From Candidatus Moranbacteria bacterium GW2011_GWE2_36_40 (GTDB lineage Bacteria > Patescibacteriota > Minisyncoccia > Moranbacterales > GWC2-37-73): 55,802 nt of DNA. The notes beneath the pieces are model-generated. The model made no database searches and was not told where the DNA came from. It saw only the letters and a list, made by a program, of their open reading frames with translations. The position numbers and the translations under genes are program-made. The stretch covers positions 1-55,802 of the forward strand of contig LBRX01000005.1 in assembly GCA_000991645.1 (NCBI GenBank), given 5' to 3'. This document shows, piece after piece, positions 9,384-24,800 of the stretch. Position 1 is the first letter of the stretch; the number at the start of each line of letters is the position of its first letter.

Positions 9384-9416
9384 CGGAGTCCGACTCCGAT
9401 TCGGAGTCGGACTCCG
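9384..9416. repeat. H2 palindrome (33 nt, 16-bp arms)
   Basis: CGGAGTCCGACTCCGA-T-TCGGAGTCGGACTCCG. Identical copies at 11099-11131 and 17127-17159. Confidence 0.9.
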
Positions 9417-9438
9417 GGGATAGGGATGATGCATGTGA

Positions 9439-9559
9439 TTATTTCCGAATCTGCACTGTCTCTGTCTTATACGAAGACCCAACTTCTTGGGCGGAAAGGG
9501 CGCGGAACGTACAGCAGTGAAACTGCTAACGTTCCGAGATTGTAGATGCGGACTTCGTT
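9439..9559 (-). pseudogene. R-box: orphan LamG-domain C-terminal fragment interrupted by the H1 hairpin
   Basis: The minus strand reads NEVRIYN-[34-nt insert]-RALSAQEVGSSYKTETVQIRK-stop. It matches the native ends of the LamG genes at 21803 and 38957. No upstream ORF body. Confidence 0.8.
9504..9535. repeat. H1 hairpin element (32 nt) inside the R-box
   Basis: GGAACGT-ACAGCAGTGAAACTGCTA-ACGTTCC. 7-bp terminal inverted repeats plus an inner AGCAG/CTGCT stem. Confidence 0.85.
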
Positions 9560-9576
9560 AATTTTTCAACAAAAAA

Positions 9577-10875
9577 CTATTTCAAATCCAAAAGCCATTT
9601 CCAAGCTGGAATTATTTTAATTTTCTTACCGTCAATCTTCCTTTCTTCTTCCTGACTCTCAGTTATGATAAGCCCGGTTTTAAGATTGAATTTTTCCATT
9701 GCTTCCAAGAGTCCATTCAGTTCCCTCTTTTCATTGTTATTATCCAACACTTTTGTGACCTGAATAACTTCAGCAATTTTTGTTCCTCTTTTGATGACGA
9801 AGTCACATTCGTGTTTTCCTTGATGATAATAGATTTCATTTCCAGCATTAAGCAGCCCTAAAAAAACAATATTCTCCAAAAACCGCCCATAATTTTCACT
9901 AAAAGAAAAAGAGACAACATCAATAAATCCATTGTCGATAGCATAAACCTTTTTAGGAAAATTTTCCTGTTTCTTGAGAGAAAACTGATAATTGGTCAAT
10001 TCAAACAAGAGGAATGATTTTTCAAAAAATCCAATGTATTCCTTGATGGTCTTATCATTCATTTTCAAGAATTCAGACAGTGAATTGTAACTGTATTTCT
10101 GACCGATGTTGGAAAGAAGATAGAGTAAAAGATTTTCAATTTCCCTTGTGTTTTTAACGTCAAAGCGAGGAATGATGTCTTGGTAAAGAATATTTTTATA
10201 GTAATTAGCTAAAATCTCATTTCTGATTTCTTTTCTTTTTTCCAAAACTATCTCGGGAAAGCCGCCATGTCGAAGATAATCGGCAAACATTTTTTTCAAC
10301 TTTCCCTCATTTTTTATTTTTTCAATCTTGCCTGTTGTTTCAATTTTTCTCGCCGCAGCCATTTCCCTGAAATCAAAAGGGAATATATTCTTAGCGATAG
10401 ATCTGCCCGAAAGCAATGTTGCCATTTCAGCAGAAAGGAGTTGGGAATTCGAGCCAGTAATGAAAAATTTTATCCCACCTTTTTCATACATACCCTTCAC
10501 AAAAACCTGCCAATCGGAAAAAAATTGCACTTCATCCAGAAAAACATAGATCTGCCCTTTTGGTTCCATAAGAGCAAGATATTCTTCAAAAATCTTGCGC
10601 AGATTGTCAGGGTCATTTTTGAACTGATTGAGCAAGGTGGATTCCAGATTAAGAAACAGGATATTTTTTGGATCAACTTTTTTTTCTTTTATCAAGAAAC
10701 TTATCAGCTGTTTGGCAATCGTGGATTTTCCACATCGTCTGACGCCAATCAATGCCACTATTTGCCTGACATTTACAAACTTGACAAGCTCTGCCATCGC
10801 CAAGCGCGGAACTCCCATGTCTGCAAGATTTCCTTCCCAATGGGCATTTTGTTGAACAATGAATTTTTCAAACAT
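9577..10875 (-). CDS. AAA+ ATPase (AAA_14-like) with DUF4143-like C-terminal domain
   Basis: Walker A GVRRCGKST; Walker B YVFLDEVQ; C-terminal ECDFVI...IQVTK motif. C-terminal IIPAWKWLLDLK is shared with the ATPase at 35177. Confidence 0.8.
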   Translation of the reverse strand: MFEKFIVQQNAHWEGNLADMGVPRLAMAELVKFVNVRQIVALIGVRRCGKSTIAKQLISFLIKEKKVDPKNILFLNLESTLLNQFKNDPDNLRKIFEEYLALMEPKGQIYVFLDEVQFFSDWQVFVKGMYEKGGIKFFITGSNSQLLSAEMATLLSGRSIAKNIFPFDFREMAAARKIETTGKIEKIKNEGKLKKMFADYLRHGGFPEIVLEKRKEIRNEILANYYKNILYQDIIPRFDVKNTREIENLLLYLLSNIGQKYSYNSLSEFLKMNDKTIKEYIGFFEKSFLLFELTNYQFSLKKQENFPKKVYAIDNGFIDVVSFSFSENYGRFLENIVFLGLLNAGNEIYYHQGKHECDFVIKRGTKIAEVIQVTKVLDNNNEKRELNGLLEAMEKFNLKTGLIITESQEEERKIDGKKIKIIPAWKWLLDLK

Positions 10876-10910
10876 ATTATTGCATTACGAATTAATATCA
10901 ATTTATTCGT

Positions 10911-10939
10911 ATTGTACTGCGAATAAATTGATATGTCAA
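10911..10939 (-). promoter_or_regulatory. Sigma70-like promoter of the ATPase at 10875
   Basis: Minus strand TTGACA-N17-TACAAT, 36 nt upstream of the ATG. It is overlapped by a perfect 15-bp inverted repeat (10895-10909 / 10920-10934). Confidence 0.5.
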
Positions 10940-11053
10940 GCATTCGAAGGTACTTATTTTATCGTATTTTTATCCATTTCTAATGTATATTAATGATATA
11001 TTTTATACATTACTAATGTATACTATTTGCATAATTTTACCAACAACACATTT

Positions 11054-11095
11054 TTACATCACGCTTAGTCTGCTTGGTTCCGCTGAAGCTGTGAC
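11054..11095 (-). repeat. L-box: orphan coding 3' end ...VTASAEPSRLSVM-stop(TAA)
   Basis: The minus strand reads gcggaaccaagcagactaagcgtgatgtaa. Homologous to the true 3' ends of the CDSs at 12672 and 19879. Confidence 0.75.
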
Positions 11096-11098
11096 TAA

Positions 11099-11131
11099 CG
11101 GAGTCCGACTCCGATTCGGAGTCGGACTCCG
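11099..11131. repeat. H2 palindrome
   Basis: Identical to 9384-9416. Confidence 0.9.
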
Positions 11132-11140
11132 GGGATAGGG

Positions 11141-11226
11141 AAACGACCCGATTTCTTGGGCGGAAAGGGCGCGGAACGTACAGCAGTGAAACTGCTAACG
11201 TTCCGAGGTTGTAGATGCGGACTTCA
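11141..11226 (-). pseudogene. R-box: LamG C-terminal fragment, truncated, with H1 insert
   Basis: SEVRIYN-[H1]-RALSAQEIGS, then fused to H2. Confidence 0.75.
11173..11204. repeat. H1 hairpin element
   Basis: Same sequence and orientation as 9504-9535. Confidence 0.85.
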
Positions 11227-11360: not shown

Positions 11361-12581
11361 TCAAACCATCCAAGCAGGATATACTTTCGCATTTTTCGTG
11401 TCACCATTAGTTTTCAAGCAAGCAAACGCAATATCAATTTGAGAATATGCTTTTTTGAAGCTTAAGACTGAATTTGAATTAGCATTTTTGAAAGTGGTTT
11501 TAACCTCCAGTGCCAGCATTTTTTGATTTTCCAATTGTAAGACAAAATCAATTTCATTTTTTTTCTTGTCTCGCCAAAAATTGAATTCATATCCGCCCTT
11601 GACCAATTGCATAAACATTGCATTTTCCAAGAGATGTCCCGCATCAATTCGGTCTTCCAATTTTCGAAAATCATTAATAATTATATTTCTAAGTCCACAG
11701 TCAAAAAAATATGTTTTCGGATTTTTCACAATCTCGGTCCGCTTGTTTTTATAATATGGCCTAACCAAACTGCAGATAAAAGTTTTTTCCAAAAAATTGA
11801 GGTATTTCTTTAGTGTCGGGTAGGAAAATTCCGAAATCTTCCCGAGTTCAGCATATTCAATCAAATCCCCTATTTGCAAAGCCAAAGCCTTGATCAATTT
11901 TTCTAATTTGTAATCATCAATGAGTCCCAAGATGTCACGCACTTCACGCAAAAAATATGTATTATAAATATTTTTCAAAACTTCTTTTTTTTCTTCTTCG
12001 TCTTTTGCCAAGACTACTCGAGGATAACCACCGAAAAGAGCATACTCCTGATAATAATGTTTTAGTTTTTCATTAACATCTTCGCCAACTTTTGAAATTC
12101 CCAATTGTTTGAAAACCAGATTTTCTTTTCCTAAAATACCGACGAGGGACTTATCCCTATAGTCCAAAAATTCTTCAAAATCAAAAGGCTGCAACTGGAA
12201 AATGAAAATCCTGCCGACCAAAAATTTGAGCGCATTGACTGTCATGTCAATGGCGGACGAGCCGGAAATGAAAATCTTGATTTTGTGCTCATCAAAAATA
12301 TATTTCAATTTTTTGCCGCCGTTTTTGGCATATTGAAATTCATCAATGAAAAGATATTTTTTATCCTTAACATACAATTCAATAAAATCATCAATGTTTT
12401 TGTTGAACATATTTAGCGCGGAACGATCTTCAAAATTGACCCTGGAAACATTTTCCAGCTTGTCTAAAATATTTCCAAGCATGGTGGATTTTCCACATTG
12501 GCGCGGGCCCACCACAGCAATGATTTCAGGAGAATCCAAATACTTTAGAATCTTACCCTCTAATTTTCGCTTAATATACAT
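11361..12581 (-). CDS. AAA+ ATPase with DUF4143-like C-terminal domain
   Basis: Walker A GPRQCGKST; Walker B YLFIDEFQ; C-terminal EIDFVL...LEVKT motif. Confidence 0.8.
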   Translation of the reverse strand: MYIKRKLEGKILKYLDSPEIIAVVGPRQCGKSTMLGNILDKLENVSRVNFEDRSALNMFNKNIDDFIELYVKDKKYLFIDEFQYAKNGGKKLKYIFDEHKIKIFISGSSAIDMTVNALKFLVGRIFIFQLQPFDFEEFLDYRDKSLVGILGKENLVFKQLGISKVGEDVNEKLKHYYQEYALFGGYPRVVLAKDEEEKKEVLKNIYNTYFLREVRDILGLIDDYKLEKLIKALALQIGDLIEYAELGKISEFSYPTLKKYLNFLEKTFICSLVRPYYKNKRTEIVKNPKTYFFDCGLRNIIINDFRKLEDRIDAGHLLENAMFMQLVKGGYEFNFWRDKKKNEIDFVLQLENQKMLALEVKTTFKNANSNSVLSFKKAYSQIDIAFACLKTNGDTKNAKVYPAWMV

Positions 12582-12620
12582 GTTTTTTAAGTATTAATAC
12601 TATAATTTAACTATGTTTTA

Positions 12621-12648
12621 ATTATAGTTCAACCAAAATTAAAGTCAA
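12621..12648 (-). promoter_or_regulatory. Sigma70-like promoter of the ATPase at 12581
   Basis: Minus strand TTGACT-N16-TATAAT, located between the L-box stop (12672) and the ATG. Confidence 0.5.
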
Positions 12649-12671: not shown

Positions 12672-13802
12672 TCACATCACGCTCAACCCGCTTGGTGCAC
12701 TGGGTGCAACAAGATCAACTGCACTACTGCCAAATATTATAGAATATCCATACACATTAAAATCACCAGCTGCATCAATCACATACAAATAAGCTGTAGA
12801 ATTATCCAGAAAAGTTCCTTGATTGACCTTGAACTCTATTTGCTCATTGCTCCAATTGTTCTGAGGAATTTGCACTTCACAATGAGATCTGCTTGCCCAC
12901 ACACTTCCTGAACAAATTTCCAGTCTTGCTTGGGTATTGTCCACATAAAGATCATCCAGCCATATTTCATGAATATCTCCATCGAGAGTATTGGTATGCA
13001 TCAGTCCAAGAATGATGCCAGCGTGTTTAAATGTTTCTCCTGCCAATCTTGTTATTGCGTTTAAATTTTTATGATTATAACTATTAGAGTAATCAACATT
13101 ACTATCATCATTGTCAATATTTTCCCATATTTGACCATCAGTAATCCCTGGAGTGGATAATTTTTTATACATATCAATACGATGCCAATTTTCATCTCTT
13201 ATTCCAAGAGGGTTATCGATTGGCTGATAATATGTAAAACCTCTCACATCTGGCGAGGACATGGTTCCAATAGGCGATGGCCCAGGATCATATAAAGGCG
13301 CATTATCACTAAAGCCTCCCATGCCTGGACCATTATATGCCTGACCAGTTCCAACTATTCTCGTGTTTTTCCATTGGCCGTAAATTGTATTTCCAGCCTT
13401 ATGATATTTTGTAACATAAGAAACATATGTTTCGTCTATTTCGACTGGAAAAAAATAGTTACTCGTGCTTTCTCCATCTGGAGATGTATAATTATATGTC
13501 TGATAGGCTGCCAAATTGCCAGAATAATGCTGCTTACTATTAAAAAGACCCCCGTTGCCCTTGTACGCCACCCAAGGTGAAACGGTCGGTAGGGCTGCGC
13601 CAGCAACACCATTTTCAAAATCAGACCAGAGCATTGGAGCAACTGGATATTTTACTCCAAAATCAATTCCAGTAACTATGACTATTGCTGAATTAACAAA
13701 AGTGCCATTTACAGAGTCAATATCTGGAGCAGCAAAAACATTTTTGCAAAAAACAAAATTGAGAACCAAAAACAATGATACTACTATGATTTGTTTTTTC
13801 AT
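12672..13802 (-). CDS. Secreted hypothetical protein A ending in the L-box (…APSAPSGLSVM-stop)
   Basis: 376 aa; signal peptide MKKQIIVVSLFLVLNFVFCKNVFAAP. The last 9 codons are the L-box consensus gcaccaagcgggttgagcgtgatgtga. Confidence 0.75.
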   Translation of the reverse strand: MKKQIIVVSLFLVLNFVFCKNVFAAPDIDSVNGTFVNSAIVIVTGIDFGVKYPVAPMLWSDFENGVAGAALPTVSPWVAYKGNGGLFNSKQHYSGNLAAYQTYNYTSPDGESTSNYFFPVEIDETYVSYVTKYHKAGNTIYGQWKNTRIVGTGQAYNGPGMGGFSDNAPLYDPGPSPIGTMSSPDVRGFTYYQPIDNPLGIRDENWHRIDMYKKLSTPGITDGQIWENIDNDDSNVDYSNSYNHKNLNAITRLAGETFKHAGIILGLMHTNTLDGDIHEIWLDDLYVDNTQARLEICSGSVWASRSHCEVQIPQNNWSNEQIEFKVNQGTFLDNSTAYLYVIDAAGDFNVYGYSIIFGSSAVDLVAPSAPSGLSVM

Positions 13803-13865
13803 TCTTATTTGATTAATTACAAAAAATTTTTAATTTATTTATTTTCTAATCGTTGTCGTGCCCGT

Positions 13866-13949
13866 TTTCCTAACTTCAATCTGTCCAAGATGATAAAGTT
13901 GAACGATTTCACTGGCGGAAAGGGCGCGGCTTCCGATGCGGACTTCATT
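13866..13949 (-). pseudogene. R-box: LamG C-terminal fragment without H1
   Basis: The minus strand reads NEVRIGSRALSASEIVQLYHLGQIEVRK. Confidence 0.75.
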
Positions 13950-13954
13950 AAAAT

Positions 13955-13982
13955 TCACATCACAGCGAGATTGGTTGGTGCT
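13955..13982 (-). repeat. L-box variant, 5 nt upstream of an R-box (cargo-free L|R junction)
   Basis: The minus strand reads gcaccaaccaatctcgctgtgatgtga, then atttt, then aatgaagtccgc. Confidence 0.7.
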
Positions 13983-14007
13983 GCGAGAGCTGCGCGGTCG
14001 GAAGAAG

Positions 14008-15348
14008 CTAATCAATAAAATCGAAACTCCGATTCACCAGATAAAACGGCAATGAAATGAGTTTGCGTTTTTTGCCGGCAACCAAAACTGAGTCTTCTTG
14101 CAATTGTCCACCATAAATTCTGATAAGCTTGCTATTCTCCACACTATCAGCAAAACTTAGAAGTGACTTGAGTCGCGCTGAACTTCCCGATTTTACTTCA
14201 ATGCCTAGTATTTTCCCCTGATGAGCCAAACAAAAATCGACTTCCGCACTGCCATTTGTTTTTTCTTTCGCCCAATAGAAAAGATCCAGCTCGCTGTGCA
14301 ACCCACTAGCGATAATATTTTGCCCCACGATCTGTTCTGCAATTTTTCCTCGATATAAGTCGTTCAAATCATTTATTTTCAGATATTCGGATTGAATATT
14401 ATTCTTGAAATTGATAAAACCACTATCCAAAAACAGGAGTTTTTTGGCTCGTTTTTTTTGTCCAACCAATGGCAGATTGAGTGATTTTGTGGCATTAATT
14501 TGCTGTACAATCATGGTTTTTTCCAGCACATCAAAAGCCTCACTCATTTCCCTGCTTCTAAAATTTCCGTCTCCAAATTTTTCATAGGTAATCCGCTCGC
14601 CAGCCGAATATGGCGATTGCTCCAAAACATGTCGCAAATATTTCACTTGAGCTGATTTTGAATATTTATAAACGTCTTCACTATAGGCTGTCAGCAGCGA
14701 AGCATACGTAGTATTCAAATCTTGCTGGGATTTTTTTTCAGCGTACATCGAGACAATTTCCGGCATGCCTCCAACCATCGCGTACTCATAAAACAATTTT
14801 AGCGCGCGCTTGTGCAGCGCCTCGGGAATTTTTTCTTTCAGAGTAACCTTCTTCAAGAAATCCAAAAGTTTCTCTTCGCCAACAGCTCCCAAAAATTCAA
14901 AAAAAGTCAGCGGATAAACATAGACATATTCGACTCTGCCAACTGGCATGGACAATCCTTCTTTTTTTATTTTAACTTCCAACAGTGAGCCGGCTGCAAT
15001 TACATGTAGATCAGGTTTTTCTTCATAAAAAAATCTTAGCAACGAAACCAGATTCGGAGTATTTTGAATTTCATCAATAAAAACCAGTGTCCTACCCGGC
15101 ACAATTTTTTGCCCCAAGACAATGTCTACTATTTTTTCAAATTCTTCCACGGATTTAACCTCGCTAAACATTTCATAGTGCTCGGCTTTTTCCAAATTTA
15201 TATCCACGAAATTTTCAAAATGTTGCCCAGCAAAAGCCGTGACAGCATAAGTTTTGCCAACTTGCCTTGCACCACGCAAAACAAGGGGTTTTCTGCCACT
15301 TTTAAGCTTCCACTCAGCCAAATATTCCAAAATATCTCGATTAAACAT
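14008..15348 (-). CDS. AAA+ ATPase with DUF4143-like C-terminal domain
   Basis: Walker A GARQVGKTY; Walker B LVFIDEIQ; C-terminal EVDFCL...IEVKS motif. Confidence 0.8.
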   Translation of the reverse strand: MFNRDILEYLAEWKLKSGRKPLVLRGARQVGKTYAVTAFAGQHFENFVDINLEKAEHYEMFSEVKSVEEFEKIVDIVLGQKIVPGRTLVFIDEIQNTPNLVSLLRFFYEEKPDLHVIAAGSLLEVKIKKEGLSMPVGRVEYVYVYPLTFFEFLGAVGEEKLLDFLKKVTLKEKIPEALHKRALKLFYEYAMVGGMPEIVSMYAEKKSQQDLNTTYASLLTAYSEDVYKYSKSAQVKYLRHVLEQSPYSAGERITYEKFGDGNFRSREMSEAFDVLEKTMIVQQINATKSLNLPLVGQKKRAKKLLFLDSGFINFKNNIQSEYLKINDLNDLYRGKIAEQIVGQNIIASGLHSELDLFYWAKEKTNGSAEVDFCLAHQGKILGIEVKSGSSARLKSLLSFADSVENSKLIRIYGGQLQEDSVLVAGKKRKLISLPFYLVNRSFDFID

Positions 15349-15387
15349 AGTGCTAGTTTGTTACAAGTTATGTCATATTATAGTGCC

Positions 15388-15416
15388 AGTTTATAACATG
15401 ATATGTATATTGTCAA
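15388..15416 (-). promoter_or_regulatory. Sigma70-like promoter of the ATPase at 15348
   Basis: Minus strand TTGACA-N17-TAAACT. Confidence 0.4.
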
Positions 15417-15530: not shown

Positions 15531-15575
15531 CTACATCACACTCAGCCCGCTTGGTGCAGTAGGGGCTGTGGCGTC
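15531..15575 (-). repeat. L-box: orphan ...DATAPTAPSGLSVM-stop(TAG)
   Basis: The minus strand reads gcaccaagcgggctgagtgtgatgtag. Confidence 0.75.
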
Positions 15576-15600
15576 TGGAAGTGCTCAATCAAAACTAAAT

Positions 15601-16293
15601 TCACTTTTGAGCGATCAAAAAATCCAACAGTCCCAGCAATTCATTTTTCAATTCATTCTTGACCCATTGTTTTCTTTTTTCATCCAACAATTCTCCCAAG
15701 CCCTCCAAAATGCCATTTTTCAATTCCTTTTTCTCAAGGAAGTTTTTCAAAAAAATCAAAAATTCTTTTTCGTTTTTGCCAGTTCTCTCAAAAATTATCT
15801 TATCGTTAAATGTCACGTTTTTTTTGAGAAAGAAAAAAATATCATAAAAATCTCGATTTGCTGTCCGCTTTCTTTCCGTCGAGGCAACAAATTTGTGAGC
15901 GAAGGCATCTTCCAATTTCAAAACCTTAACATCGGTGCCATAAAAATTCTTGATTTCATATGAATTTTGAGGCCAAATCTTTTTTGAAATTTCAATCTTG
16001 ACTCCATGTTCACCCTCGCCATAGCTAAGCAGAAAGAAAATATTATTATATTTGTCCATTTCGTCCTTGATCGTGCCATAATCCAAAAGAATTTGCCTGA
16101 CAACCTCAGAAACGAATTCATTCTTGCTCTCATCAAGCAAATCAAAATCCAGATCGACAGAAAAACGGTCGAGTTGATGAAAGAAATAAAACATCGTTCC
16201 GCCCTTAAAACCAAGATATGCGCCAGCTGGAGATTTGTAAATATCGGTCAGCAAATTGAAAAGGATTTGCCTGTGTCTTTGAACATTCAACAT
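15601..16293 (-). CDS. abiEii: Nucleotidyltransferase AbiEii/AbiGii-family toxin
   Basis: N-terminal FKGGTMFYFFHQLDRFSVDLDFDLL motif. Starts 3 nt after the AbiEi-like ORF ends. Confidence 0.75.
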   Translation of the reverse strand: MLNVQRHRQILFNLLTDIYKSPAGAYLGFKGGTMFYFFHQLDRFSVDLDFDLLDESKNEFVSEVVRQILLDYGTIKDEMDKYNNIFFLLSYGEGEHGVKIEISKKIWPQNSYEIKNFYGTDVKVLKLEDAFAHKFVASTERKRTANRDFYDIFFFLKKNVTFNDKIIFERTGKNEKEFLIFLKNFLEKKELKNGILEGLGELLDEKRKQWVKNELKNELLGLLDFLIAQK

Positions 16294-16295
16294 AA

Positions 16296-16865: not shown

Positions 16866-16907
16866 ATGTCATCTAAAGGTTATCATATTTGATTACTTAC
16901 TAATGAT

Positions 16908-16936
16908 ATTGTAGCATATTAGCGATATGCCGTCAA
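16908..16936 (-). promoter_or_regulatory. Sigma70-like promoter of the abiEi-abiEii pair
   Basis: Minus strand TTGACG-N17-TACAAT. Confidence 0.5.
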
Positions 16937-17123: not shown

Positions 17124-17126
17124 TGA

Positions 17127-17159: not shown

Positions 17160-17185
17160 GGGATGCCTGGGGATGTTTCGTGTAG

Positions 17186-17310
17186 CTATTTCCGCACTTC
17201 AATCTTGCCGGTGTTGTAGAGATTGGAAATTTCCCGGGCGGAAAGGGCTTGGAACGTACAGCAGTGAAACTGCTAACGTTCCGCGGTTGTAGATGCGAAC
17301 TTCGTCGATA
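17186..17310 (-). pseudogene. R-box: LamG C-terminal fragment with H1 insert
   Basis: IDEVRIYNR-[34 nt]-ALSAREISNLYNTGKIEVRK-stop. It begins 4 nt after the ATPase stop codon. Confidence 0.8.
17251..17282. repeat. H1 hairpin element
   Basis: Forward interior; flanks gggctt / gcggttgta. Confidence 0.85.
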
Positions 17311-18471: not shown

Positions 18472-18489
18472 TATGGAATTAGTAACTCC

Positions 18490-18518
18490 ATAATACAGCT
18501 TACGTATTTTTCTGTCAA
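18490..18518 (-). promoter_or_regulatory. Sigma70-like promoter of the ATPase at 18471
   Basis: Minus strand TTGACA-N17-TATTAT, starting 8 nt after the L-box stop. Confidence 0.5.
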
Positions 18519-18525: not shown

Positions 18526-18553
18526 TCACATCACGACGAGATTAGTTAGTGCA
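18526..18553 (-). repeat. L-box variant
   Basis: The minus strand reads gcactaactaatctcgtcgtgatgtga, closest to the 13955 variant. Confidence 0.6.
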
Positions 18554-18597
18554 GGCATTGCAGAGACGCAAAAATTTGAATGTTTTGTCAGGCACAG

Positions 18598-18625
18598 GTA
18601 GAGACGCATTGCAATGCGTCTCTAC
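18598..18625. repeat. REP palindrome (GTAG type)
   Basis: GTAGAGACGCATTGCAATGCGTCTCTAC, a perfect 28-nt palindrome. A half-copy cagagacgca lies at 18561-18570. Confidence 0.9.
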
Positions 18626-18637
18626 AGCGGGTTTGGT

Positions 18638-18727
18638 TTATTTCCGAATCTGTGCTGTCCCTGTTTTGTACAACGACCCGATTTCTTGGGCGGAAAGGGC
18701 GCGGTTGTAGATGCGGACTTCGTCTAT
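18638..18727 (-). pseudogene. R-box: intact-looking LamG C-terminal fragment (no H1)
   Basis: IDEVRIYNRALSAQEIGSLYKTGTAQIRK-stop. It begins 18 nt after the RhuM-Fic stop. Confidence 0.8.
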
Positions 18728-18745: not shown

Positions 18746-19744
18746 CTACTTCAACAATTGAGTTATAAGCGCAATCATTTGATCTTTCTCTTTTGGAGCA
18801 CTTTGTGCGATCAAAAGCGCCAAAGCTGCCAAGGCATTGTCATTGATTTTCCGCTCGCCATTTTTTCGAAAAAGATACTTATTTGCATCCAAAAAATATA
18901 CAAACAAAAATGCTGCGGCTCTTTTGTTGCCGTCAGAAAATGGATGATCCTTGATTATCAAATACAAAAGATGCGCCGCTTTTGATTCCAAATTTGCATA
19001 CAACTGCTTGCCGCCAAATGTTTGATACAAATTTTTTATAATACCCTCAAATGCTCCGCCTCGCTCATTGCCAAAAAAATCCCCCGCTTCATTTTTTGCC
19101 ATCAATTCCCTTCTAAGTTCGGAAACTATTTTTTGACATTTTTCATATGTCAAAACAAAAGTCGCCTTTCCATCTCTCAACTCTTTCAAGCTGCTTTTGT
19201 CATATTGCTCCAAAATCGTGAGCGTCTTAGCATAATCCGCCAACAGATCAATAATTTCTCTCTCTTGCCCTTTTAATAATTTTGTCCTGGATTTTTGCTG
19301 CAGAAAAACAATGGTCTCTTGAAGCTTATTAAGCTTTTCTTTTTCTTCGAAAAGCCGTTTTTCATTGATCGTGTAACCCTGAATCAAATGCTGCTTCAAT
19401 GTTTTTGTTGCCCAAATGCGGAATCCGACACCTTGTTGAGATTTCACTCGATAACCCACGGAGATTATGACATCCAAATTATAATACTCGACTTTATAAA
19501 TTTTTCCGTCAGCGGCAGTTGTTGCAAAATTTGCAACAACTGCTTTTTTGTCTAATTCTTTTTCGCCAAAGACATTTTTAATATGGCGAGAAATTACAGA
19601 TTTGTCTCTCCCAAAAAGATTCGCGATCTGATCAAGACTTAGCCAAACAGTCTCTTTTTTCAAATGCACTTCCAACTTCGGTCCGGAAGCAGATTTATAG
19701 ATGATGATTTCTCCGGTGCTTAAGTATTTTTTGTCTTGTTTCAT
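18746..19744 (-). CDS. RhuM-family N-terminal domain fused to Fic/DOC domain
   Basis: RhuM-like FATTAADGKIYKVEYYNLDVIISVGYRVKSQQGVGFRIWAT; Fic motif HPFSDGNKRAAAF. The ORF opens at 19783, but MKQDKKYL (19744) is the likelier start. Confidence 0.8.
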   Translation of the reverse strand: MKQDKKYLSTGEIIIYKSASGPKLEVHLKKETVWLSLDQIANLFGRDKSVISRHIKNVFGEKELDKKAVVANFATTAADGKIYKVEYYNLDVIISVGYRVKSQQGVGFRIWATKTLKQHLIQGYTINEKRLFEEKEKLNKLQETIVFLQQKSRTKLLKGQEREIIDLLADYAKTLTILEQYDKSSLKELRDGKATFVLTYEKCQKIVSELRRELMAKNEAGDFFGNERGGAFEGIIKNLYQTFGGKQLYANLESKAAHLLYLIIKDHPFSDGNKRAAAFLFVYFLDANKYLFRKNGERKINDNALAALALLIAQSAPKEKDQMIALITQLLK

Positions 19745-19809
19745 TTTATTCTTGCCCCGTGAAATTGCATAGCAACATTTCACTGGGGTATTTTATTAAT
19801 TACAGTGAT

Positions 19810-19838
19810 ATAATATCATTGTAATGAAAAGTTGTCCA
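19810..19838 (-). promoter_or_regulatory. Possible promoter of the RhuM-Fic gene
   Basis: Minus strand TGGACA-N17-TATTAT. Confidence 0.35.
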
Positions 19839-19878
19839 ATTCTTCGGAGTTCTTCTCCGATTTCCTGCCTCTTTTTGC

Positions 19879-21750
19879 TCACATCACGCTCAACCCGCTT
19901 GGTGCAGCGGGAGGGGTAGAATCTGAAGTGCTGGGCAGATTAACATGAAAGACATGAATCAATGGCAAACCATAACTAGCATTGGCTTGTGATATAAATA
20001 TCCTTTGCGTGGCAGAATCATAGGCAGCGCCATTTATTTTATTATCACCATGACCAGCAATTCCATCATTGCCAGCAGCTGCGTAAGGAGCCAGCAAAGT
20101 AGTCAAATCCCACTGTGCATAAGGTTTTATGCACCATGGATAATACACTGCGCCGGTTGCGCAAGAAGTATCAATATTTGAAGATCTGTCAGTGCCAATA
20201 ATGTCAGCATTTTTTACATGCAATAAGTCATTGGCATCATATGCCCAAACATAATATGCATACGGATAAGTATGTGTTCCCTTATCACTTATGGCAGGAT
20301 CATAGCAACACGAATCATTCCCAGCAGCGTCCATGATTGCAGATCCGCAAGTATAGGGAATGCCACCACCAGCCACAATACAAGAGGCTATTTTCCAAGT
20401 TGCATCATTGACTGGAATATTACAGTTATCATAAGCCAACTGAGAATTATGGGCAATTATCCAATCAGCTATACCTGAATTGCCTATGGCTTCAGCTTGA
20501 TTAATGGTTCCGCTGCCATAGCAAGATTCGCCCAATCCTGTTCTGCCAAAAAAAAGTACACCTCGACTGCCTTGAGGAAAAACAATACCCTTAATTTCTG
20601 TGCTCATATTATAAGCAGGATTAGTCCCAGGAGCACCATAGACACCCAGTGTTTGGTGCGATCCTGGATAATATACGAGTGGACTGATTGACACCGGATT
20701 ATCAAAACTTCCCAATGTTCCATTACCCAAATCTGATGGATTAAACGCAAAAGCTGATGGACCATAAGATGTGCGCGTAATAATCGCCATCGCAGCATTT
20801 CCCGTCAAGGCGGTTTTTCCAAAACTACTTTGCCACTCAGTAGGAATCCATCCCATATATCCATCGACAAATCCAGCGCTTAATGCGCCATTGTCAATTA
20901 TGGTTGTGCCTAACCTATACATACCCTGAGTACCAACAGATGAATTCCAATTCAAATTAGCCGTAAAATGAGAATAAGTTGTGTCACTTTGCCCGTCATA
21001 TGCGGTGTAAGTTGTCCCAATCAATTTATTGTGCACGTTATCAACCAGAGTTCCTCCAATCAACACTCCACCATCACTCAAGTTTGTTCCACCATAATTA
21101 TAAATAACCCAGCCCGGATATTGAGCTATTGGCATATTGTTTACCAATATATCATTCACGAACGCATTTGTAATATTTATTGTTAATGTCGTGGAATTTA
21201 CAGCGACTATAGTAGCCTGTCCACCATTAGGCTCAATAAGCGTGTATCCAGGCAATACTAAACCAGTATCCCAAACTCCACTAGCCCTAGTGACTGAAAT
21301 GCTGTTTCCAGATTTGGCAGATAAATAAATTGTCATCTGTTGATCTTCAAGATGATTCGATGAGCATTTACTAACACTTGTTCCAAATAATGCATAGGCG
21401 GGATTATTTTGAAGTGGACCAATAAAGCATCCCAGTCCCCCTGTTACATCTAAGGGGTTCTGCAAGACAGACGCAGTATCAAGCGCGCTCATGTTTGTAC
21501 TATTAACAATATTTGTCGGTACACACAACTCGGCAAGCAATACTTCGAATTTATTCCCTTCCATGAAGAGAGAATTATTAATCGGATTATATGACATTGC
21601 TCTGCCAGCATCACTGCCAAATGACGGATTGATTTGTGAAACTGTTCCCAATTTTCCATCAGGCACCTTGAAAGCTCCAAGATATTGCAAATCTGATTGT
21701 TGCAAAAGAGGCTCAGTTGCTGGATCAGCAGCGATTACATTCTGCACCAA
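19879..21750 (-). CDS. Secreted hypothetical protein B ending in the L-box (…PPAAPSGLSVM-stop)
   Basis: 623-aa ORF from TTG at 21750. The frame stays open upstream and encodes IKKILIIINIIISCLFLVQNVIAADP, a signal peptide, so the real start may be ATT/ATA near 21798. Confidence 0.7.
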   Translation of the reverse strand: MVQNVIAADPATEPLLQQSDLQYLGAFKVPDGKLGTVSQINPSFGSDAGRAMSYNPINNSLFMEGNKFEVLLAELCVPTNIVNSTNMSALDTASVLQNPLDVTGGLGCFIGPLQNNPAYALFGTSVSKCSSNHLEDQQMTIYLSAKSGNSISVTRASGVWDTGLVLPGYTLIEPNGGQATIVAVNSTTLTINITNAFVNDILVNNMPIAQYPGWVIYNYGGTNLSDGGVLIGGTLVDNVHNKLIGTTYTAYDGQSDTTYSHFTANLNWNSSVGTQGMYRLGTTIIDNGALSAGFVDGYMGWIPTEWQSSFGKTALTGNAAMAIITRTSYGPSAFAFNPSDLGNGTLGSFDNPVSISPLVYYPGSHQTLGVYGAPGTNPAYNMSTEIKGIVFPQGSRGVLFFGRTGLGESCYGSGTINQAEAIGNSGIADWIIAHNSQLAYDNCNIPVNDATWKIASCIVAGGGIPYTCGSAIMDAAGNDSCCYDPAISDKGTHTYPYAYYVWAYDANDLLHVKNADIIGTDRSSNIDTSCATGAVYYPWCIKPYAQWDLTTLLAPYAAAGNDGIAGHGDNKINGAAYDSATQRIFISQANASYGLPLIHVFHVNLPSTSDSTPPAAPSGLSVM

Positions 21751-21802
21751 AAACAGGCAGGATATAATTATATTGATTATTATTAATATTTTTTTAATAC
21801 CT

Positions 21803-24800
21803 TTATTTCCTAATGTTTACTTGACCAAGCTTATAAAATTGCGTGATTTCTTGCGCATTCAAGGCTCTGTTGTAAATTCTGGTTTCATCAATAACACCAT
21901 TCATAAATTCTGATCCACCACCCCTTGAACCTATAATAAAAGGACTAGCTGAATCAGTATAGCTTCCAGTTGGTACTACGCTTTTTTTCTCAATAGCATC
22001 AACATAAATTTTAATTGCTCCGCCTGTAGAATATGTACCACAAAAATAATGCCAAGCATTGTCACTAATTCCTTGCCCTGGTCCAGGATCCACGGAGGCC
22101 CTATCATTGTTGGAAAAACCTAACATAATAAACTCCGCATAACTACCATTTACACGCAAGTAAACTGCTCCATCTTGAGTCACCAATGTATCAGTGGCTA
22201 AAATATCATTCAATTTACCCCAAGAGCATATGCTAAGTGGACTCGTGCCTCCAAATGGCATGTCGCCAATATTTATATAACTACTCGTCCCGTCAAACCC
22301 CATCCCCTGCCCAATCTTCCCGAGTGCAAGTGTTGCGCCGGAGATGGTGCCGTTGTTGCCGAGGCCGGAGAGGTCAGTGACAGTTGTGCCATTGATCGTT
22401 TTGCCGTCGAAGGACCAATATCCGACCAGGCCGTTTTCATTTCCGGCGGATGCTTCGGGTGCAGCGACAGTATCAATGCCTTGATGATAGAGTTGCTCGA
22501 TTTCATTGGCTGAAAGTGCGCGGTTGTAGACGCGGACATCGTCTATTTTTCCGTCAAAAGTTCTGTCTCCTGCAACATTATTTCCAATTGTCAACGCTGT
22601 AGCACCAGCTAATACTGATCCCGTTTTGGGCGTACTAGCAATAGAAACACCATCAAAATATATTGAAATATTTGCGCCATCATACACACAATCCACATGA
22701 TGCCAACTATTATATTTTCCAGCAAGTGGGCTAGTAGTAGTTGTTATTCCTTCTGCTCCAATGTTGCATGACAAATTATTACCTACAAAAAGAAAGATGT
22801 ATGGATAACCATTGCCCTTTTCAATTATCCTAGGATAACCACCGCCCTCGCTTTTTGGATTTATCCATGCGCTCAATGTTAACTGTGCCATACCATCCAG
22901 TGAGTCCTTGTCTGAAACTGTTACCACATTTGTCGCGGCAGAATAATTCACACCCTGTCCCAATTTCCCAATCGCCTTGGTTGCGCCAGAAATTGTGCCA
23001 TTGTTATTGTTTCCAGAAGTGTCTTTGGCAGTTGTGCCGGAAATATCTTGTCCGTCAAATGTCCAATGCCCGACCAAGCCAGCATCAAGATTTGGCGATG
23101 ATTGTTGGGTTTGCAGCACTGTGTCAGAAAATTGATCGGCGCCGATGTCCCACGGATTCACACGCACTTGTCCGTCAATATCAGTGTCGAATGCAAAATA
23201 TGAGTCATGTTGCAAATCCAAACCTGCACCTTTGGCGGAAGTGTCGGTTGAGGCGAGGTGGAAATTTTTATTAGTTGCATCAATGAAGGAAACTGTTGTT
23301 GAATTTTTTGAATTTGATCCAGGAGCGTCAGCAGCAAGATTTGAAATATTATAATCAGATGCAGCGTCAAATGTTCCATTAAATCCATCTGTGGAATTTT
23401 GAACAATATTGTTTTTTGCAACAGCCACCACACCCGAGCCTATATTTATAGCATAGTTAGAATTATAAATTGTATTATTATAGATGTGATATTTAAAACC
23501 AGTTGATAAGAGATAAAATACACTTGAACCAGTTCCTAGTTGGTCATACACAATATTATTAAGAATATATACATTTCCCTTTCCAGAGGCCGAAACATCA
23601 TGAATCAAATATGTCCAATCAGATGTACTTCCTTTGACAACGTTGTCAGAAAAATACATTCCTACTTCTTCTGACATATACAATCTAAAAGCTGAAGCCG
23701 CTGCTGTGTTATACACTTGTAGACCAACTATTTTGCTGTAATTAATACCATTAATAAATGTACTACTTGTTTGAAGGCTGTATTTCGTATCATTCCATTT
23801 TCCAGAATGTCTTTGAGAAAGATTTACTTCCCTATTTATATCAACAGGAGTATATATTTTTATATAGTTTGAAGCACTTGTTGAAATGCTTGGGGTGTTT
23901 ATAGAAACAGTATCTGGACCAGAATCATAGTAACAAGGAATATTGAGTTGATAATTTCCGGTGACCAAATTGGATGTATTCAAATGCAACACATCAGTTG
24001 AATCTGCAAGTGAATCCCTGAGTGATGCAAATTCGTGTGCAATTGAGTTAACTGTCGCTCCTGTCACATCAGCAGGTGTTGCGCCGAGATTGGTTGCCAG
24101 TTTCCATTGCGAAGTTGAAATTTTTTCTGAAATATATGCAACGGTCGCTCCGTTGTATGTAACTTTATCTCCAACACCCATGTTTGTTGCGGTTTGAGCC
24201 ACTGAAAAAGTTGCAATTCCAGATGAAATCGTCACTGTTGGTGTGCCGGTTTTATGATCGGTAGTATTTTGCCCGACGGAATAAAAAATTGCAGTAGCAG
24301 CTTCGTCGGCACCGATATCAACAACGCCCGCTCCAGTTGGTCGAGTTTGTCCGTCAATATCAGTTGTGATTGGCAGATTCACATCCGCACTCAAATCTGC
24401 TCCCGCATTTTTTGCAGCAGTGTCAGAGGGAGAAAGATGGAAGTCTTTATTAGCAGCGTCGGCAAACTGAACTGTTTGATTGCGACAAGAATGTCCACCA
24501 CAATCAGTCGCGCCAGCGTTTGGGGAGGTTGCGTCGGAGGAAATGTTATTCGCAGAAGAAGCATTCAAGATGCCTGAATAATCAGTCGTATTACCACTTG
24601 CGATATTATTCTTCACCAACTGCCCTAAACCACCAAAGCCATAGAAACCAACACGTGAATTAATGACAGTATTATTATATACTACAGAATTAGAGCCAGC
24701 AGAAATTGCTGCCATATTCAAACTTCCATTGTAAGAAAAATCATAGATAAGATTATTAAATATTTGTGTTGTTGGAGTATAATCAAGAGCTATCCCATAA

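What the first reader, a model, noticed from the sequence alone, without database searches (positions are those of the whole stretch)
9384..21805. Array of self-promoted accessory genes bounded by two recurring coding-fragment boxes (L-box and R-box) with precise junctions
Reading the minus strand from 21803 down to 9384, two conserved boxes recur at gene boundaries.

The boxes:
- L-box: the 3' end of a coding sequence, ...(A/E)P(S/I)(G/R)LSVM-stop, consensus GCACCAAGCGGGTTGAGCGTGATGTGA. Copies at 19879, 18526, 17082, 15531, 13955, 12672 and 11054.
- R-box: the last ~28 codons of a LamG domain, (I/L)DEVRIYNRALSA.EI..LY..G....RK-stop. Copies at 18638, 17186, 13866, 11141 and 9439. They match the in-frame native ends of the LamG genes at 21803 and 38957.

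What lies between the boxes:
- Every L-to-R interval holds an unrelated gene with its own TTGACA-N17-TAnAAT promoter. These are RhuM-Fic and three DUF4143-type ATPases.
- The abiEi/abiEii pair and a fourth ATPase sit after L-boxes in the same way.
- Every R-to-L interval holds either a secreted-protein gene that terminates in the L-box (19879-21750, 12672-13802) or just a palindrome (H2 or REP).

Junction precision: variable sequence begins right after GTGATGTRA. For cargoes that share no homology, it ends 4-18 nt before A(T/A)HGACGAAGTYCGC.

Two explanations fit:
- A cassette insertion or exchange process uses the two boxes as recombination or homology arms, resembling integron or orphan-module arrays.
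- A tandem surface-protein gene family suffered repeated, similar decay.

No recombinase lies within the array. The nearest DNA-processing enzyme is the RAYT at 36590.
Basis: partly seen in the sequence, partly recalled or inferred. Interest (0 to 1): 0.85.

Follow-up and report, generated by a model that had tools for sequence, protein, structure and literature searches.

The report
Defence-gene array bracketed by displaced gene ends
A 12-kb string of self-promoted anti-phage genes sits between a giant surface-protein gene and a leftover copy of that kind of gene's last ~30 codons, each gene bracketed by similar leftovers; other candidate-phyla bacteria show the same bracketing, which hints at gene-cassette acquisition without an integrase.

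Summary
On the minus strand of 9384-21805 there are seven L-boxes and five R-box remnants, and a sixth R remnant lies at 37292-37415.

- **Boxes:** The R-box is the conserved 3' end of LamG (Laminin_G_3) genes. The L-box is not a truncated FN3 domain. It is the native C-terminus (..APSAPSGLSVx-stop) shared by tandem secreted-protein genes in Moranbacteria.
- **Cargo:** The cargo genes are defence genes or defence candidates, each behind a strong promoter-like site: four DUF4143 ATPases (PADLOC PDC-S01), RhuM-Fic (PDC-S23) and AbiEi/AbiEii.
- **Sibling genomes:** In two sibling Moranbacteria a giant LamG gene ends about 100-130 nt before the orthologous TPR gene. The array is therefore an insertion, and remnant R9 holds the position that a LamG gene end holds there.
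- **Other genomes:** Relatives of the cargo sit elsewhere as promoter+ORF units, often flanked by a diverged direct repeat of the upstream gene's 3' end. Three other Patescibacteria show LamG end | cargo | LamG-end remnant. Repeat copies differ mostly at synonymous sites.

Best explanation (inferred, about 0.5): homology-anchored sequential displacement and exchange, as proposed for Rhs and T6SS orphan arrays. It is not an integron. I score it a new variant of a known kind, interest 0.6.

The parts
21803..29689 (-). Giant 2628-aa surface protein with two Laminin_G_3 domains. Its last ~29 codons (21803-21892) are the native R-box (R0).
19879..21750 (-).
18746..19838 (-). RhuM-Fic/DOC cargo gene (PADLOC PDC-S23/S05) with a promoter-like site at 19838-19810.
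18526..18727 (-). Joint 1: R18 remnant (18638-18727, intact 29-codon frame plus stop), REP palindrome (18598-18625), L18 remnant ALTNLVVM-stop (18526-18552).
17314..18518 (-). DUF4143/AAA_14 ATPase of 385 aa (PDC-S01) with TTGACA-N17-TATTAT at 18518-18490. Homologues are about 70% identical across several phyla.
17082..17309 (-). Joint 2: R17 remnant (17186-17309) with the 34-nt hairpin insert (17250-17283), H2 palindrome (17127-17159), L17 remnant (17082-17126).
15601..16936 (-). abiEi (16296-16865) and abiEii (15601-16293) pair with a promoter-like site at 16936-16908. It is flanked by L17 and L15 and by a 32-nt exact repeat (16966-16997 and 15457-15488).
15531..15584 (-). L15 remnant (LPDATAPTAPSGLSVM-stop), which starts right after the abiEii stop.
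14008..15416 (-). DUF4143 ATPase of 446 aa (PDC-S01) with a promoter-like site at 15416-15388.
13839..14005 (-). L13 remnant (13955-14005) directly abutting the R13 remnant (13839-13952). R13 ends ..EVRKTGTTTIRK-stop, like giant 2 of the sibling DEA43.
12672..13802 (-). Secreted 376-aa protein ending in the native L-box (12672-12698). Homologues elsewhere are stand-alone and end in the same motif.
11361..12648 (-). DUF4143 ATPase of 406 aa with a promoter-like site at 12648-12621. An 83% identical orthologue with the same promoter follows a different L-ended gene in L173.
11054..11226 (-). Joint 3: truncated R11 remnant (11142-11226) with hairpin (11172-11205), H2 (11099-11131), L11 remnant (11054-11098). 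The L/H2 part (84 nt) is 92% identical to joint 2; the R/hairpin part (81 nt) is 84% identical to joint 2 and 96% identical to R9.
10952..11036 (-). 5' remnant of an older ATPase cassette: operator palindromes plus the first 7 codons MDKNTIK-stop. It is 88-90% identical to the start of the ATPases in L134, L136 and L137.
9577..10939 (-). DUF4143 ATPase of 432 aa with TTGACA-N17-TACAAT at 10939-10911. DNA similarity to orthologues in other genomes (65-84% aa identity) covers only the promoter and the ORF.
9384..9562 (-). R9 remnant (9439-9562, hairpin 9503-9536) plus H2 (9384-9416), directly upstream of the conserved promoter region of the TPR gene. This is the position held by a LamG gene end in the sibling genomes.
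6688..9297 (-). 869-aa membrane/TPR protein, the conserved right-hand anchor used for the synteny comparison.
37292..39046 (-). Second instance outside the given range: native R end of the 1197-aa LamG gene (38957-39046) plus REP, a DUF4143 ATPase (37421-about 38797), then the R remnant with flipped hairpin (37292-37415) plus REP.

Best explanation
The array is a defence island. I infer that it was built by repeated homology-anchored insertion and displacement at the conserved 3' ends of surface-protein genes.

**What is shown.**
- The R-box and L-box are the terminal coding segments of LamG-ended and 'APSGLSVx'-ended genes.
- The cargo genes are horizontally acquired, self-promoted defence genes.
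- At the orthologous site in sibling genomes, a LamG giant gene runs straight into the TPR gene.

**What is inferred.**
- Incoming DNA arrives from other strains or from paralogous loci. It may be a circle excised by box-by-box recombination or a linear fragment taken up by transformation.
- That DNA carries a gene-end segment plus a downstream cassette.
- It recombines with the resident gene end through the short conserved block.
- The incoming end keeps the gene intact, and the resident end is pushed downstream as a silent remnant.
- Repetition, together with unequal or double crossovers between any two boxes, stacks units of the form [R | L-ended gene or its remnant | cargo] and lets cargo be swapped between identical joints.
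- REP, H2 and hairpin palindromes colonised the silent remnants later.
For: **1. Presence/absence at the orthologous site.** Moranbacteria HGA36 (L198) and DEA43 (L195/L196) have a giant LamG gene whose stop lies about 100-130 nt before the TPR orthologue (70-76% identical) and no array. The TPR promoter region is conserved and in the window lies just beyond R9+H2.

**2. Remnant types.** The R remnants fall into types that resemble the ends of different sibling giants. R13 resembles the DEA43 giant 2 end. R17, R37 and the native 38957 end resemble the DEA43 giant 1 end. R18 and R9 are most similar to each other and next to the HGA36 giant end.

**3. Cargo as discrete units.** Orthologues of the 432-aa ATPase share DNA only from the -35 hexamer to the stop and lie in other contexts. 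Homologues of the 385-aa ATPase, about 70% identical, occur in Omnitrophota, Elusimicrobiota and Planctomycetota and sit inside housekeeping operons.

**4. Same anatomy elsewhere.** A repeat of the upstream gene's 3' end starts within -29 to +9 nt of the cargo stop in L132, L133, L136, L151 and L168. Three further loci show LamG end | cargo | LamG-end remnant: L089 (ATPase) and L050/L079 (AbiEii-like). Such repeats were found around 7 of 41 ATPase ORFs against 15 of 310 other ORFs, odds ratio 4.0, p=0.008.

**5. Both repeat copies were once coding.** Codon differences are 8 synonymous to 2 non-synonymous in L132 and 6 to 2 in L089 by my reading of the alignment. L050 shows CGN<->AGR switches. 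In L136 the gene-attached copy has GC 0.28, like the cassette, and the remnant has GC 0.48, like the host.

**6. Recombination-sized identity.** Some pairs hold perfect identity blocks of 22-41 nt, the size recombination needs.

**7. Concerted evolution of boxes.** All seven L-boxes here end in VM-stop, whereas sibling arrays use other last residues. The 27-nt L-box is identical in two otherwise unrelated genes. Two R-H2-L joints are 92% identical (L/H2 part) and 84% identical (R/hairpin part) between cargo genes only 21-32% identical to one another.

**8. Cassette turnover.** The 5' stump of an older ATPase cassette survives at 10952-11036.

**9. Precedent.** The same model was proposed for Rhs tips (PMC2935791) and for T6SS effector-immunity arrays through homology-facilitated illegitimate recombination (PMC5361080).
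Against: - No recombination intermediate, circle or alternative junction was seen. All assemblies of this population carry the same gene order.
- Four cargo genes have unlike flanks (L on the left, R on the right). The array reads as regular repeats only at the R level.
- Repeats also flank cassettes at unique, non-repeated targets: a PMT-like gene end in L133 and intergenic DNA in L202 and L204. Pure homologous recombination cannot create the first repeat at such sites.
- Several repeat pairs are only 74-80% identical, with perfect runs of 11-14 nt. That is poor substrate for RecA.
- The remnant start clusters within about 12 nt upstream of GACGAAGT in two other genomes (L050/L079) as well as here. 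The model accommodates this but does not predict it.
- The composition argument for L136 rests on 20 codons.
Confidence: 0.5

Rival explanations
1. Repeated decay. The ancestor had a long tandem array of LamG-ended and L-ended surface-protein genes with defence genes inserted in the spacers. Gene bodies were later deleted, leaving only 3' stubs.
For: - Sibling genomes do have tandem arrays of L-ended genes.
- They also have two giant LamG genes separated by small accessory genes and an L-box stub.
- R13 resembles the end of DEA43 giant 2.
- The synonymous-difference pattern only says that the remnants were once functional ends.
- About 60 nt of native intergenic DNA follows L17.
Against: - Ten remnants keep only 27-128 nt of 3' end. 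No 5' or internal gene fragment was recognised in the spacers, most of which is taken up by boxes, palindromes, promoters and one cassette stump; a few stretches of 45-120 nt remain unexplained.
- Cargo stops abut the remnant starts within 0-17 nt in most cases, and the remnant start clusters at the beginning of the conserved block in three lineages. Random deletions should give a spread of lengths and some 5' stubs.
- The same anatomy occurs at a single-copy-looking PMT-like gene.
Confidence: 0.2
2. Site-specific integration by a recombinase acting in trans (a tyrosine or serine integrase, or the RAYT/HUH enzyme). The boxes or their palindromes would act as att-like sites and the units would stack by tandem accretion, as with tRNA-targeting islands or integrons.
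For: - Direct repeats made of a gene's 3' end flanking inserted DNA are the classic footprint of integrases that target gene ends.
- A RAYT and its REPs are in the window, and palindromes sit in most R-to-L joints.
Against: - No integrase domain was found in any ORF of at least 150 aa in the window.
- Joints L15, L12, L19 and L13|R13 have no palindrome.
- Repeat-flanked cassettes in other genomes have no such palindromes and no shared core sequence at their junctions.
- Repeat copies are 74-88% identical rather than sharing an exact core.
- One-gene cassettes use many unrelated targets.
Confidence: 0.1
3. Self-insertion by the cargo. The DUF4143 ATPase, which has a PD-(D/E)XK-type nuclease domain, would cut target DNA and promote its own insertion with a long target duplication.
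For: - Flanking repeats are enriched around DUF4143 ATPase genes.
- DUF4143 is listed in a survey of the PD-(D/E)XK superfamily (PMC3424549, found and not read in detail).
- Repeats occur at many unrelated targets, including intergenic DNA.
Against: - AbiE-type cargo shows the same bracketing.
- The six ATPases in the window are only 21-32% identical, so there is no sign of recent copying.
- Repeat copies differ by selected, mostly synonymous changes rather than by decay of a fresh duplication.
- About three quarters of the ATPase loci examined have no repeat.
Confidence: 0.08

Closest known systems
Rhs / CdiA / MafB 'C-terminal displacement' and orphan-tip arrays (Jackson et al. 2009, PMC2935791)
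   Same: An intact gene is followed by a string of fragments that repeat a conserved part of that gene, with foreign DNA between them. The arrangement differs between related strains. The proposed mechanism is homologous recombination through the conserved block, possibly via circles, which pushes the old end downstream.
   Different: Here the repeated block is the extreme 3' end including the stop codon, not a core segment fused to a variable toxin tip. The DNA between repeats consists of independent, self-promoted defence genes rather than toxin tips with immunity genes. Two box families alternate. The host is a Patescibacteria genome.
Sequential displacement of T6SS effector-immunity modules in Vibrio cholerae (Kirchberger et al. 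2017, PMC5361080)
   Same: Arrays grow by insertion next to a conserved anchor, and 3' ends of displaced genes are retained. Homology-facilitated illegitimate recombination after natural transformation is proposed. No integrase is involved.
   Different: In Vibrio the retained genes are immunity genes functionally tied to the displaced effector. Here the cargo is functionally unrelated to the anchor gene, and remnants are only 27-128 nt.
Tandem accretion of integrative elements at gene 3' ends (tRNA-fragment arrays, tycheposons, CIME/ICE accretion)
   Same: Repeated 3'-end fragments of the target gene separate successive cargo blocks, and the target gene stays intact.
   Different: No integrase was found. 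The blocks are single genes. The repeats are diverged homologues rather than exact att cores. Targets are protein-gene ends of many kinds. The description of these elements rests on my own knowledge, since the papers found were not read in detail.
Chromosomal integron cassette arrays
   Same: A one-directional string of single-gene cassettes, many of them defence genes, is separated by short recurring joints that contain palindromes.
   Different: There is no IntI or attI. The joints are coding gene ends, not attC sites. Every cassette has its own promoter. Joints vary in composition.

Membership tests
Integron | IntI tyrosine recombinase with attI next to the array | tested here: not met
   Pfam scans of all ORFs of at least 150 aa in the 55.8-kb window found no integrase or recombinase. 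They found only a Y1 (IS200-like) RAYT and a reverse transcriptase. The rest of the genome was not seen.
Integron | attC sites (imperfect inverted repeats) at the 3' end of every cassette | tested here: not met
   The joints are in-frame LamG and L-motif gene ends. The palindromes (REP, H2, hairpin) are near-perfect and are missing from joints L15, L12, L19 and L13|R13.
Integron | Mostly promoterless cassettes read from a common Pc promoter | tested here: not met
   The best sigma-70-like matches on the minus strand (10-11 of 12 positions) lie in front of each cargo gene. Orthologues elsewhere keep the same promoter.
C-terminal displacement / orphan arrays (Rhs, CDI, T6SS effector-immunity) | Intact gene followed by downstream fragments that repeat a conserved part of it | tested here: met
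   Native R0 and R38957 are followed by six R remnants, and native L19 and L12 by five L remnants.
C-terminal displacement / orphan arrays (Rhs, CDI, T6SS effector-immunity) | Fragments fused to alternative toxin tips and followed by cognate immunity genes | tested here: not met
   The remnants end at their own stop codons. The genes that follow are DUF4143 ATPases, RhuM-Fic and AbiE, each with its own promoter.
C-terminal displacement / orphan arrays (Rhs, CDI, T6SS effector-immunity) | Array content differs between related strains while the anchor gene is conserved | tested here: met
   HGA36 and DEA43 have the giant LamG gene directly before the TPR gene. DEA43 has a different mini-array between its two giants.
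Site-specific integrative element at a gene 3' end | Element-encoded or linked integrase | tested here: not met
   None was found in the window or in the repeat-flanked loci L050, L089, L132, L133 and L136.
Site-specific integrative element at a gene 3' end | Flanking direct repeats with an identical core (attL/attR) and restoration of the target gene | tested here: inconclusive
   The target ORFs stay intact and repeats are present. However, the copies are 74-98% identical with perfect runs of 11-41 nt, and no core is shared between targets.
DNA transposon with target-site duplication | Terminal inverted repeats, a transposase, near-identical copies and exact short duplications | tested here: not met
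   No terminal repeats appear at the cassette ends. The ATPases are 21-32% identical. The repeats are 22-116 nt long and diverged at synonymous sites.
Defence island / PADLOC candidate systems | Cargo proteins match models of known or candidate defence proteins | tested here: met
   PDC-S01 matched all six ATPases (E down to 7e-154). PDC-S23 matched RhuM-Fic (3e-124). AbiEi and AbiEii matched at 4e-36 and 2e-63. Anti-phage function itself was not tested.
REP/RAYT system | GTAG-led palindromes clustered around a Y1 transposase-like gene | tested here: met
   Six copies of GTAGAGACGCATTGCAATGCGTCTCTAC were found, four of them in or flanking the RAYT gene at 36590-37225. They appear to be secondary colonists of the joints and are not needed for the anatomy in other genomes.

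The most novel reading that the evidence does not exclude
Patescibacteria may have a widespread, integrase-free way of moving single defence genes. Each promoter+ORF cassette would travel with a short 'adapter' copy of the 3' end of the gene it sat behind, and would integrate wherever a similar gene end exists. Conserved C-terminal motifs of abundant surface proteins (the LamG end and the APSGLSV end) would then work as portable landing pads, a functional counterpart of attC/attI without a dedicated enzyme. A variant is that an as yet unknown enzyme makes the first repeat at new targets.
Probability: 0.25. Interest if true: 0.8.

Novelty: new variant of a known kind. Interest (0 to 1): 0.6.

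Why it matters
If this reading is right, it addresses how streamlined candidate-phyla genomes acquire and reshuffle anti-phage genes. These genomes are thought to carry few plasmids, integrons or integrases (my own knowledge, not tested here). It would also explain why their defence genes pile up behind giant surface-protein genes.

It extends the 'displacement' model, so far described for polymorphic toxin loci, to cargo that is functionally unrelated to the anchor gene. It also yields a simple sequence signature that can be searched genome-wide: a cassette followed by a diverged copy of the upstream gene's last 20-120 nt. That signature could be used to find recently acquired genes and new defence candidates.

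Tried and rejected
1. **R-box scan of genome contigs.** The motif is simply the most conserved DNA of LamG_3, so this is not a specific probe. The loci were still useful as a control set.
2. **One apparent remnant was ordinary.** The R remnant in L072 turned out to be the end of a decayed LamG pseudogene with recognisable upstream fragments. It was not counted as an example.
3. **No FN3/LamG bridge.** I looked for an ancestral gene joining the L-box and R-box through FN3/LamG. Homologues of the 376-aa protein are 350-450 aa, and many end natively at the L motif.
4. **No polymorphism in the population.** Exact-protein look-ups for the 376-aa protein and AbiEii returned only the same gene order in all Rifle assemblies and two MAGs. 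The 385-aa ORF as read here is not on record; gene callers use a 381-aa start.
5. **No viral relatives.** Viral-contig scans for RhuM-Fic and the 385-aa ATPase found no relatives.
6. **No curated family.** NCBIfam gave no family for the L-ended proteins or the ATPases.
7. **Simple tandem duplication rejected.** The cargo ATPases are only 21-32% identical.
8. **Fresh target-site duplication rejected.** The repeat copies differ mainly at synonymous sites.

Full report
**What is in the window.** Reading the minus strand from the giant 2628-aa LamG protein (29689..21803) down to the 869-aa membrane/TPR gene (9297..6688), the order is as follows:

- giant gene with native R-box R0
- 623-aa protein ending in L-box L19
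- RhuM-Fic
- R18, REP, L18
- ATPase of 385 aa
- R17 (with hairpin), H2, L17
- abiEi and abiEii
- L15
- ATPase of 446 aa
- L13 directly abutting R13
- 376-aa secreted protein ending in L12
- ATPase of 406 aa
- R11 (hairpin, truncated), H2, L11
- 5' stump of another ATPase cassette
- ATPase of 432 aa
- R9 (hairpin), H2
- TPR gene

The 27-nt L consensus is exact twice, with none expected by chance. The R core matches six times, with none expected.

The 1197-aa LamG gene (native R at 38957) is followed by a REP, then a DUF4143 ATPase (37421..about 38797), then an R remnant (37292-37415) and another REP.

Pfam and PADLOC identify the cargo as AAA_14+DUF4143 ATPases (PDC-S01), RhuM+Fic (PDC-S23/S05) and AbiEi/AbiEii. 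The strongest promoter-like matches on the minus strand fall before each cargo gene.

**What the boxes are.**

The R-box is the C-terminal strand region of Laminin_G_3 (..IDEVRIYNRALSA.EI..LY..G....RK-stop). Its DNA core is so conserved that a 22-mer finds it from Actinobacteria to archaea. It is therefore not a dedicated site.

The L-box is not a truncated FN3 domain.
- Homologues of the 376-aa protein in other Patescibacteria are stand-alone proteins of 350-450 aa, and many end in ..D.TAPSAPSGLSV plus one residue.
- In three related loci, five consecutive genes with differing C-terminal regions all end in that motif.
- All seven copies in the window end in VM-stop, while sibling arrays use L, N, S or I.
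- The last 27 nt are identical in two otherwise dissimilar genes.

Together these points indicate concerted evolution, that is, recombination among the boxes.

The box joints have GC 0.46-0.55, against 0.33-0.42 for the genes around them.

**The array is an insertion.** The organism is a Moranbacteria from Rifle groundwater. The source assemblies are GCA_000991325.1 and GCA_000991815.1, and an identical ATPase is named from Candidatus Moranbacteria GW2011_GWE1_36_7.

Orthologues of the TPR protein (70-76% identical) were located in two sibling MAGs.
- In HGA36 a 2947-aa LamG giant ends 135 nt before the TPR gene.
- In DEA43 a 2252-aa LamG giant ends 107 nt before it.
- Neither has an array at this site.

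The promoter region of the TPR gene is recognisably conserved in all three genomes. In the window it lies just beyond R9 and the H2 hairpin. R9 therefore occupies the position that the end of a LamG gene occupies in the siblings, and 12.2 kb now separate it from the giant gene's body.

DEA43 has its own small array between two giants: a 23S-rRNA-IVP-like gene, an L-box stub (TPFHPPPLGLNLM-stop), a 176-aa gene and a PDDEXK_3 gene.

The R remnants fall into types that resemble different sibling gene ends.
- R13 (..EVRKTGTTTIRK) resembles the DEA43 giant 2 end (..EVRETGTTTIRK).
- R17, R37 and the native 38957 end resemble the DEA43 giant 1 end.
- R18 and R9 are most similar to each other and next to the HGA36 giant end.

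**The cargo genes are discrete, horizontally moving units.** The six ATPases in the window are 21-32% identical to one another, so they are not recent duplicates.

Orthologues of the 432-aa ATPase (65-84% identical) share DNA only from the -35 hexamer to the stop codon. They lie between dockerin-ended secreted proteins (L132) or between a PMT-like glycosyltransferase and a P-type ATPase (L133).

An 83% identical orthologue of the 406-aa ATPase, with the same promoter, follows a different L-ended gene in L173.

Homologues of the 385-aa ATPase, about 70% identical, occur in several other phyla. They sit inside a hydrogenase operon, after tgt, or after a HepT/MNT pair.

Between L11 and the promoter of the 432-aa ATPase lies the operator region plus the first seven codons of a different ATPase type. 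This stretch is 88-90% identical to L134, L136 and L137. It is a direct trace of one cassette having replaced another.

**The same bracketing occurs elsewhere.**

| Locus | Repeat | Identity | Notes |
|---|---|---|---|
| L132/L131 | last 109 nt of the upstream gene, including its stop | 88% | repeated right after the ATPase stop and 3 nt before the next gene's ATG |
| L133 | 51 nt | 80% | PMT-like gene end |
| L136 | 58 nt | 76% | upstream gene end |
| L151 | 45 nt | 98% | ATPase ORF reads into the repeat |
| L168 | 36 nt | 97% | ATPase ORF reads into the repeat |
| L089 | 116 nt | 87% (63-nt coding part) | unrelated Patescibacteria MAG: LamG end, DUF4143 ATPase, LamG-end remnant |
| L050/L079 | 107 nt | 74% | Giovannonibacteria and a Parcubacteria MAG: LamG end, small ORF plus AbiEii-like gene, LamG-end remnant |
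| L204 | 66 nt | 80% | intergenic target |
| L202 | 41 nt | 78% | intergenic target |

At score at least 20 the counts are 13 of 41 against 22 of 310, p=3e-5. Several of the 'other' hits are also accessory genes, such as ATPase_2-like genes, Rpn-like PD-(D/E)XK genes, AbiEii-like genes and a RAYT. About three quarters of the ATPase loci have no repeat.

**What the repeat copies say.** The two copies differ mainly at synonymous sites.
- L132 has 8 synonymous against 2 non-synonymous codon differences, including a TCG/AGC serine switch.
- L089 has 6 against 2 by my reading of the alignment.
- L050 has several CGN/AGR and CTC/TTG switches.

The remnant was therefore part of a working gene for a long time after the two copies diverged. 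It is not a fresh duplication that then decayed.

In L136 the copy attached to the gene has GC 0.28, like the cassette (0.36). The remnant has GC 0.48, like the host gene. This suggests that the incoming DNA supplied the new gene end, but it rests on only 20 codons.

Some pairs hold perfect runs of 22-41 nt. Others have runs of only 11-14 nt.

**Most likely mechanism.** Taken together, the array looks like the product of sequential displacement.
- DNA carrying a gene-end segment plus a downstream cassette recombines with a resident gene end through the conserved block.
- The incoming end keeps the gene intact, and the resident end is shunted downstream.
- At the R level the window reads R0 | X | R18 | X | R17 | X | R13 | X | R11 | X | R9. 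Each X begins with an L-ended gene or its stub and ends with cargo.
- Homotypic brackets exist at the L level too: L17 | abiE | L15 | ATPase | L13.
- Once units exist, unequal or double crossovers between any two boxes can add, remove or swap cargo. This fits the highly similar R-H2-L joints (84-92% identical, depending on the part) between unrelated cargo genes.

This is the model proposed for Rhs tips, with circular intermediates (PMC2935791). It was also proposed for Vibrio T6SS effector-immunity arrays, through homology-facilitated illegitimate recombination after transformation (PMC5361080).

The steps shown here are the identity of the boxes, the insertion relative to siblings, the discreteness and horizontal spread of the cargo, the recurrent bracketing, and the coding history of the remnants. 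The recombination pathway itself is inferred.

**Weak points.**
- No intermediates or polymorphism were seen.
- Four cargo genes have unlike flanks.
- Repeats at unique targets need a first, non-homologous event.
- Several repeat pairs have low identity.

**Rivals.**
- **Pure decay of a tandem family.** This is possible for individual stubs. However, it does not explain why ten stubs keep only the last 27-128 nt, with no recognisable 5' or internal fragments and with cargo stops abutting them.
- **A recombinase acting in trans.** This cannot be excluded without the whole genome. None is in the window, the palindromes are missing from several joints and from the examples in other genomes, and no common core exists.
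- **Self-insertion by the DUF4143 nuclease-ATPase.** This is contradicted by AbiE-type cargo with the same anatomy and by the coding history of the remnants.
- **An integron.** This is excluded on three tested features.

**Verdict.** The boxes are ordinary gene ends, not special sites. The closest precedent is displacement arrays of polymorphic toxin loci. It is a new variant of that kind, involving defence genes, two alternating anchor families and a candidate-phyla host. Interest is 0.6.

Noticed in passing
window 30601-32968: A diversity-generating retroelement. The reverse transcriptase lies at 31181-32320 (-). The target gene, with an Lcl_C/DUF1566-type C-terminus, lies at 32369-32968 (-). 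A 100-nt template repeat (30601-30700) is 92% identical to the variable repeat at the target's 3' end (32374-32473). By my reading, most mismatches fall at positions that are T on the + strand (A on the coding strand) in the template.
   Followed up: partly
window 17250-17283, 11172-11205, 9503-9536, 37356-37389: A 34-nt palindromic mini-element (CGGAACGTTAGCAGTTTCACTGCTGTACGTTCCG) is inserted at the same CGCG inside four silent R-box remnants, once in flipped orientation. It seems to duplicate CGCG. It is absent from intact LamG ends. It looks like a tiny target-specific mobile hairpin.
   Followed up: partly
window 12672-12698, 19879-19905; L007, L009, L010: Tandem genes whose C-terminal regions differ, in related Moranbacteria-type loci, all end in ..D.(T/I)APSAPSGLSV plus one residue. 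No Pfam or NCBIfam model covers this motif. It resembles the first strand of an FN3 domain and could be a C-terminal sorting or docking tag.
   Followed up: partly
window 5480-6070 and 6080-6478: Two small secreted FN3 proteins, one with a dockerin, lie next to a cohesin/Big_13 protein (2402-5458). By eye, their mature N-termini seem to begin at the second FN3 strand (..VVSWTPP....KLNWNAS..). This raises the untested idea that the APSGLSV tails of the L-ended proteins complement them.
   Followed up: no
window 36590-37282, 35144-35171, 38924-38951, 18598-18625: A RAYT (Y1 transposase-like) gene with its REP family GTAGAGACGCATTGCAATGCGTCTCTAC, six copies in all. One copy lies inside the RAYT ORF as listed, which suggests that the ORF is interrupted or miscalled.
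   Followed up: partly
window 10905-10945; L132 2180-2245; L133 2940-3000: The promoter of the 432-aa ATPase and of its orthologues carries a conserved palindrome, TTATTCG-N10-CGAATAA, across the -10 region. It is probably an operator for autoregulation.
   Followed up: no
window 16966-16997 and 15457-15488: A 32-nt exact repeat (TTTAACGGGGCAGGCATGATTAAAATGATTTC on the minus strand) lies downstream of L17 and L15, just upstream of the abiE and ATPase-446 promoters. Its function is unknown, and no copies were found in other loci.
   Followed up: partly
window 17314-18471: The 385-aa DUF4143 ATPase has homologues 68-77% identical in Omnitrophota, Elusimicrobiota, Planctomycetota and Armatimonadota. 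That is unusually high conservation across phyla for a defence candidate, and its GC (0.42) is above that of its neighbours.
   Followed up: partly
window 33125-34498 and 34575-35099: A Schlafen/AlbA_2-HATPase_c_4-wHTH protein (weak PADLOC matches to pAgo-associated modules) and a 174-aa gene followed by CGCTGAT-type short repeats. The DEA43 sibling has a 176-aa gene of similar size (homology not tested) followed by the same kind of repeats.
   Followed up: no
L186-L189 (window about 13100-13300): Several independent assemblies of this population break inside the 376-aa secreted-protein gene at slightly different points. This may reflect strain variation there.
   Followed up: no
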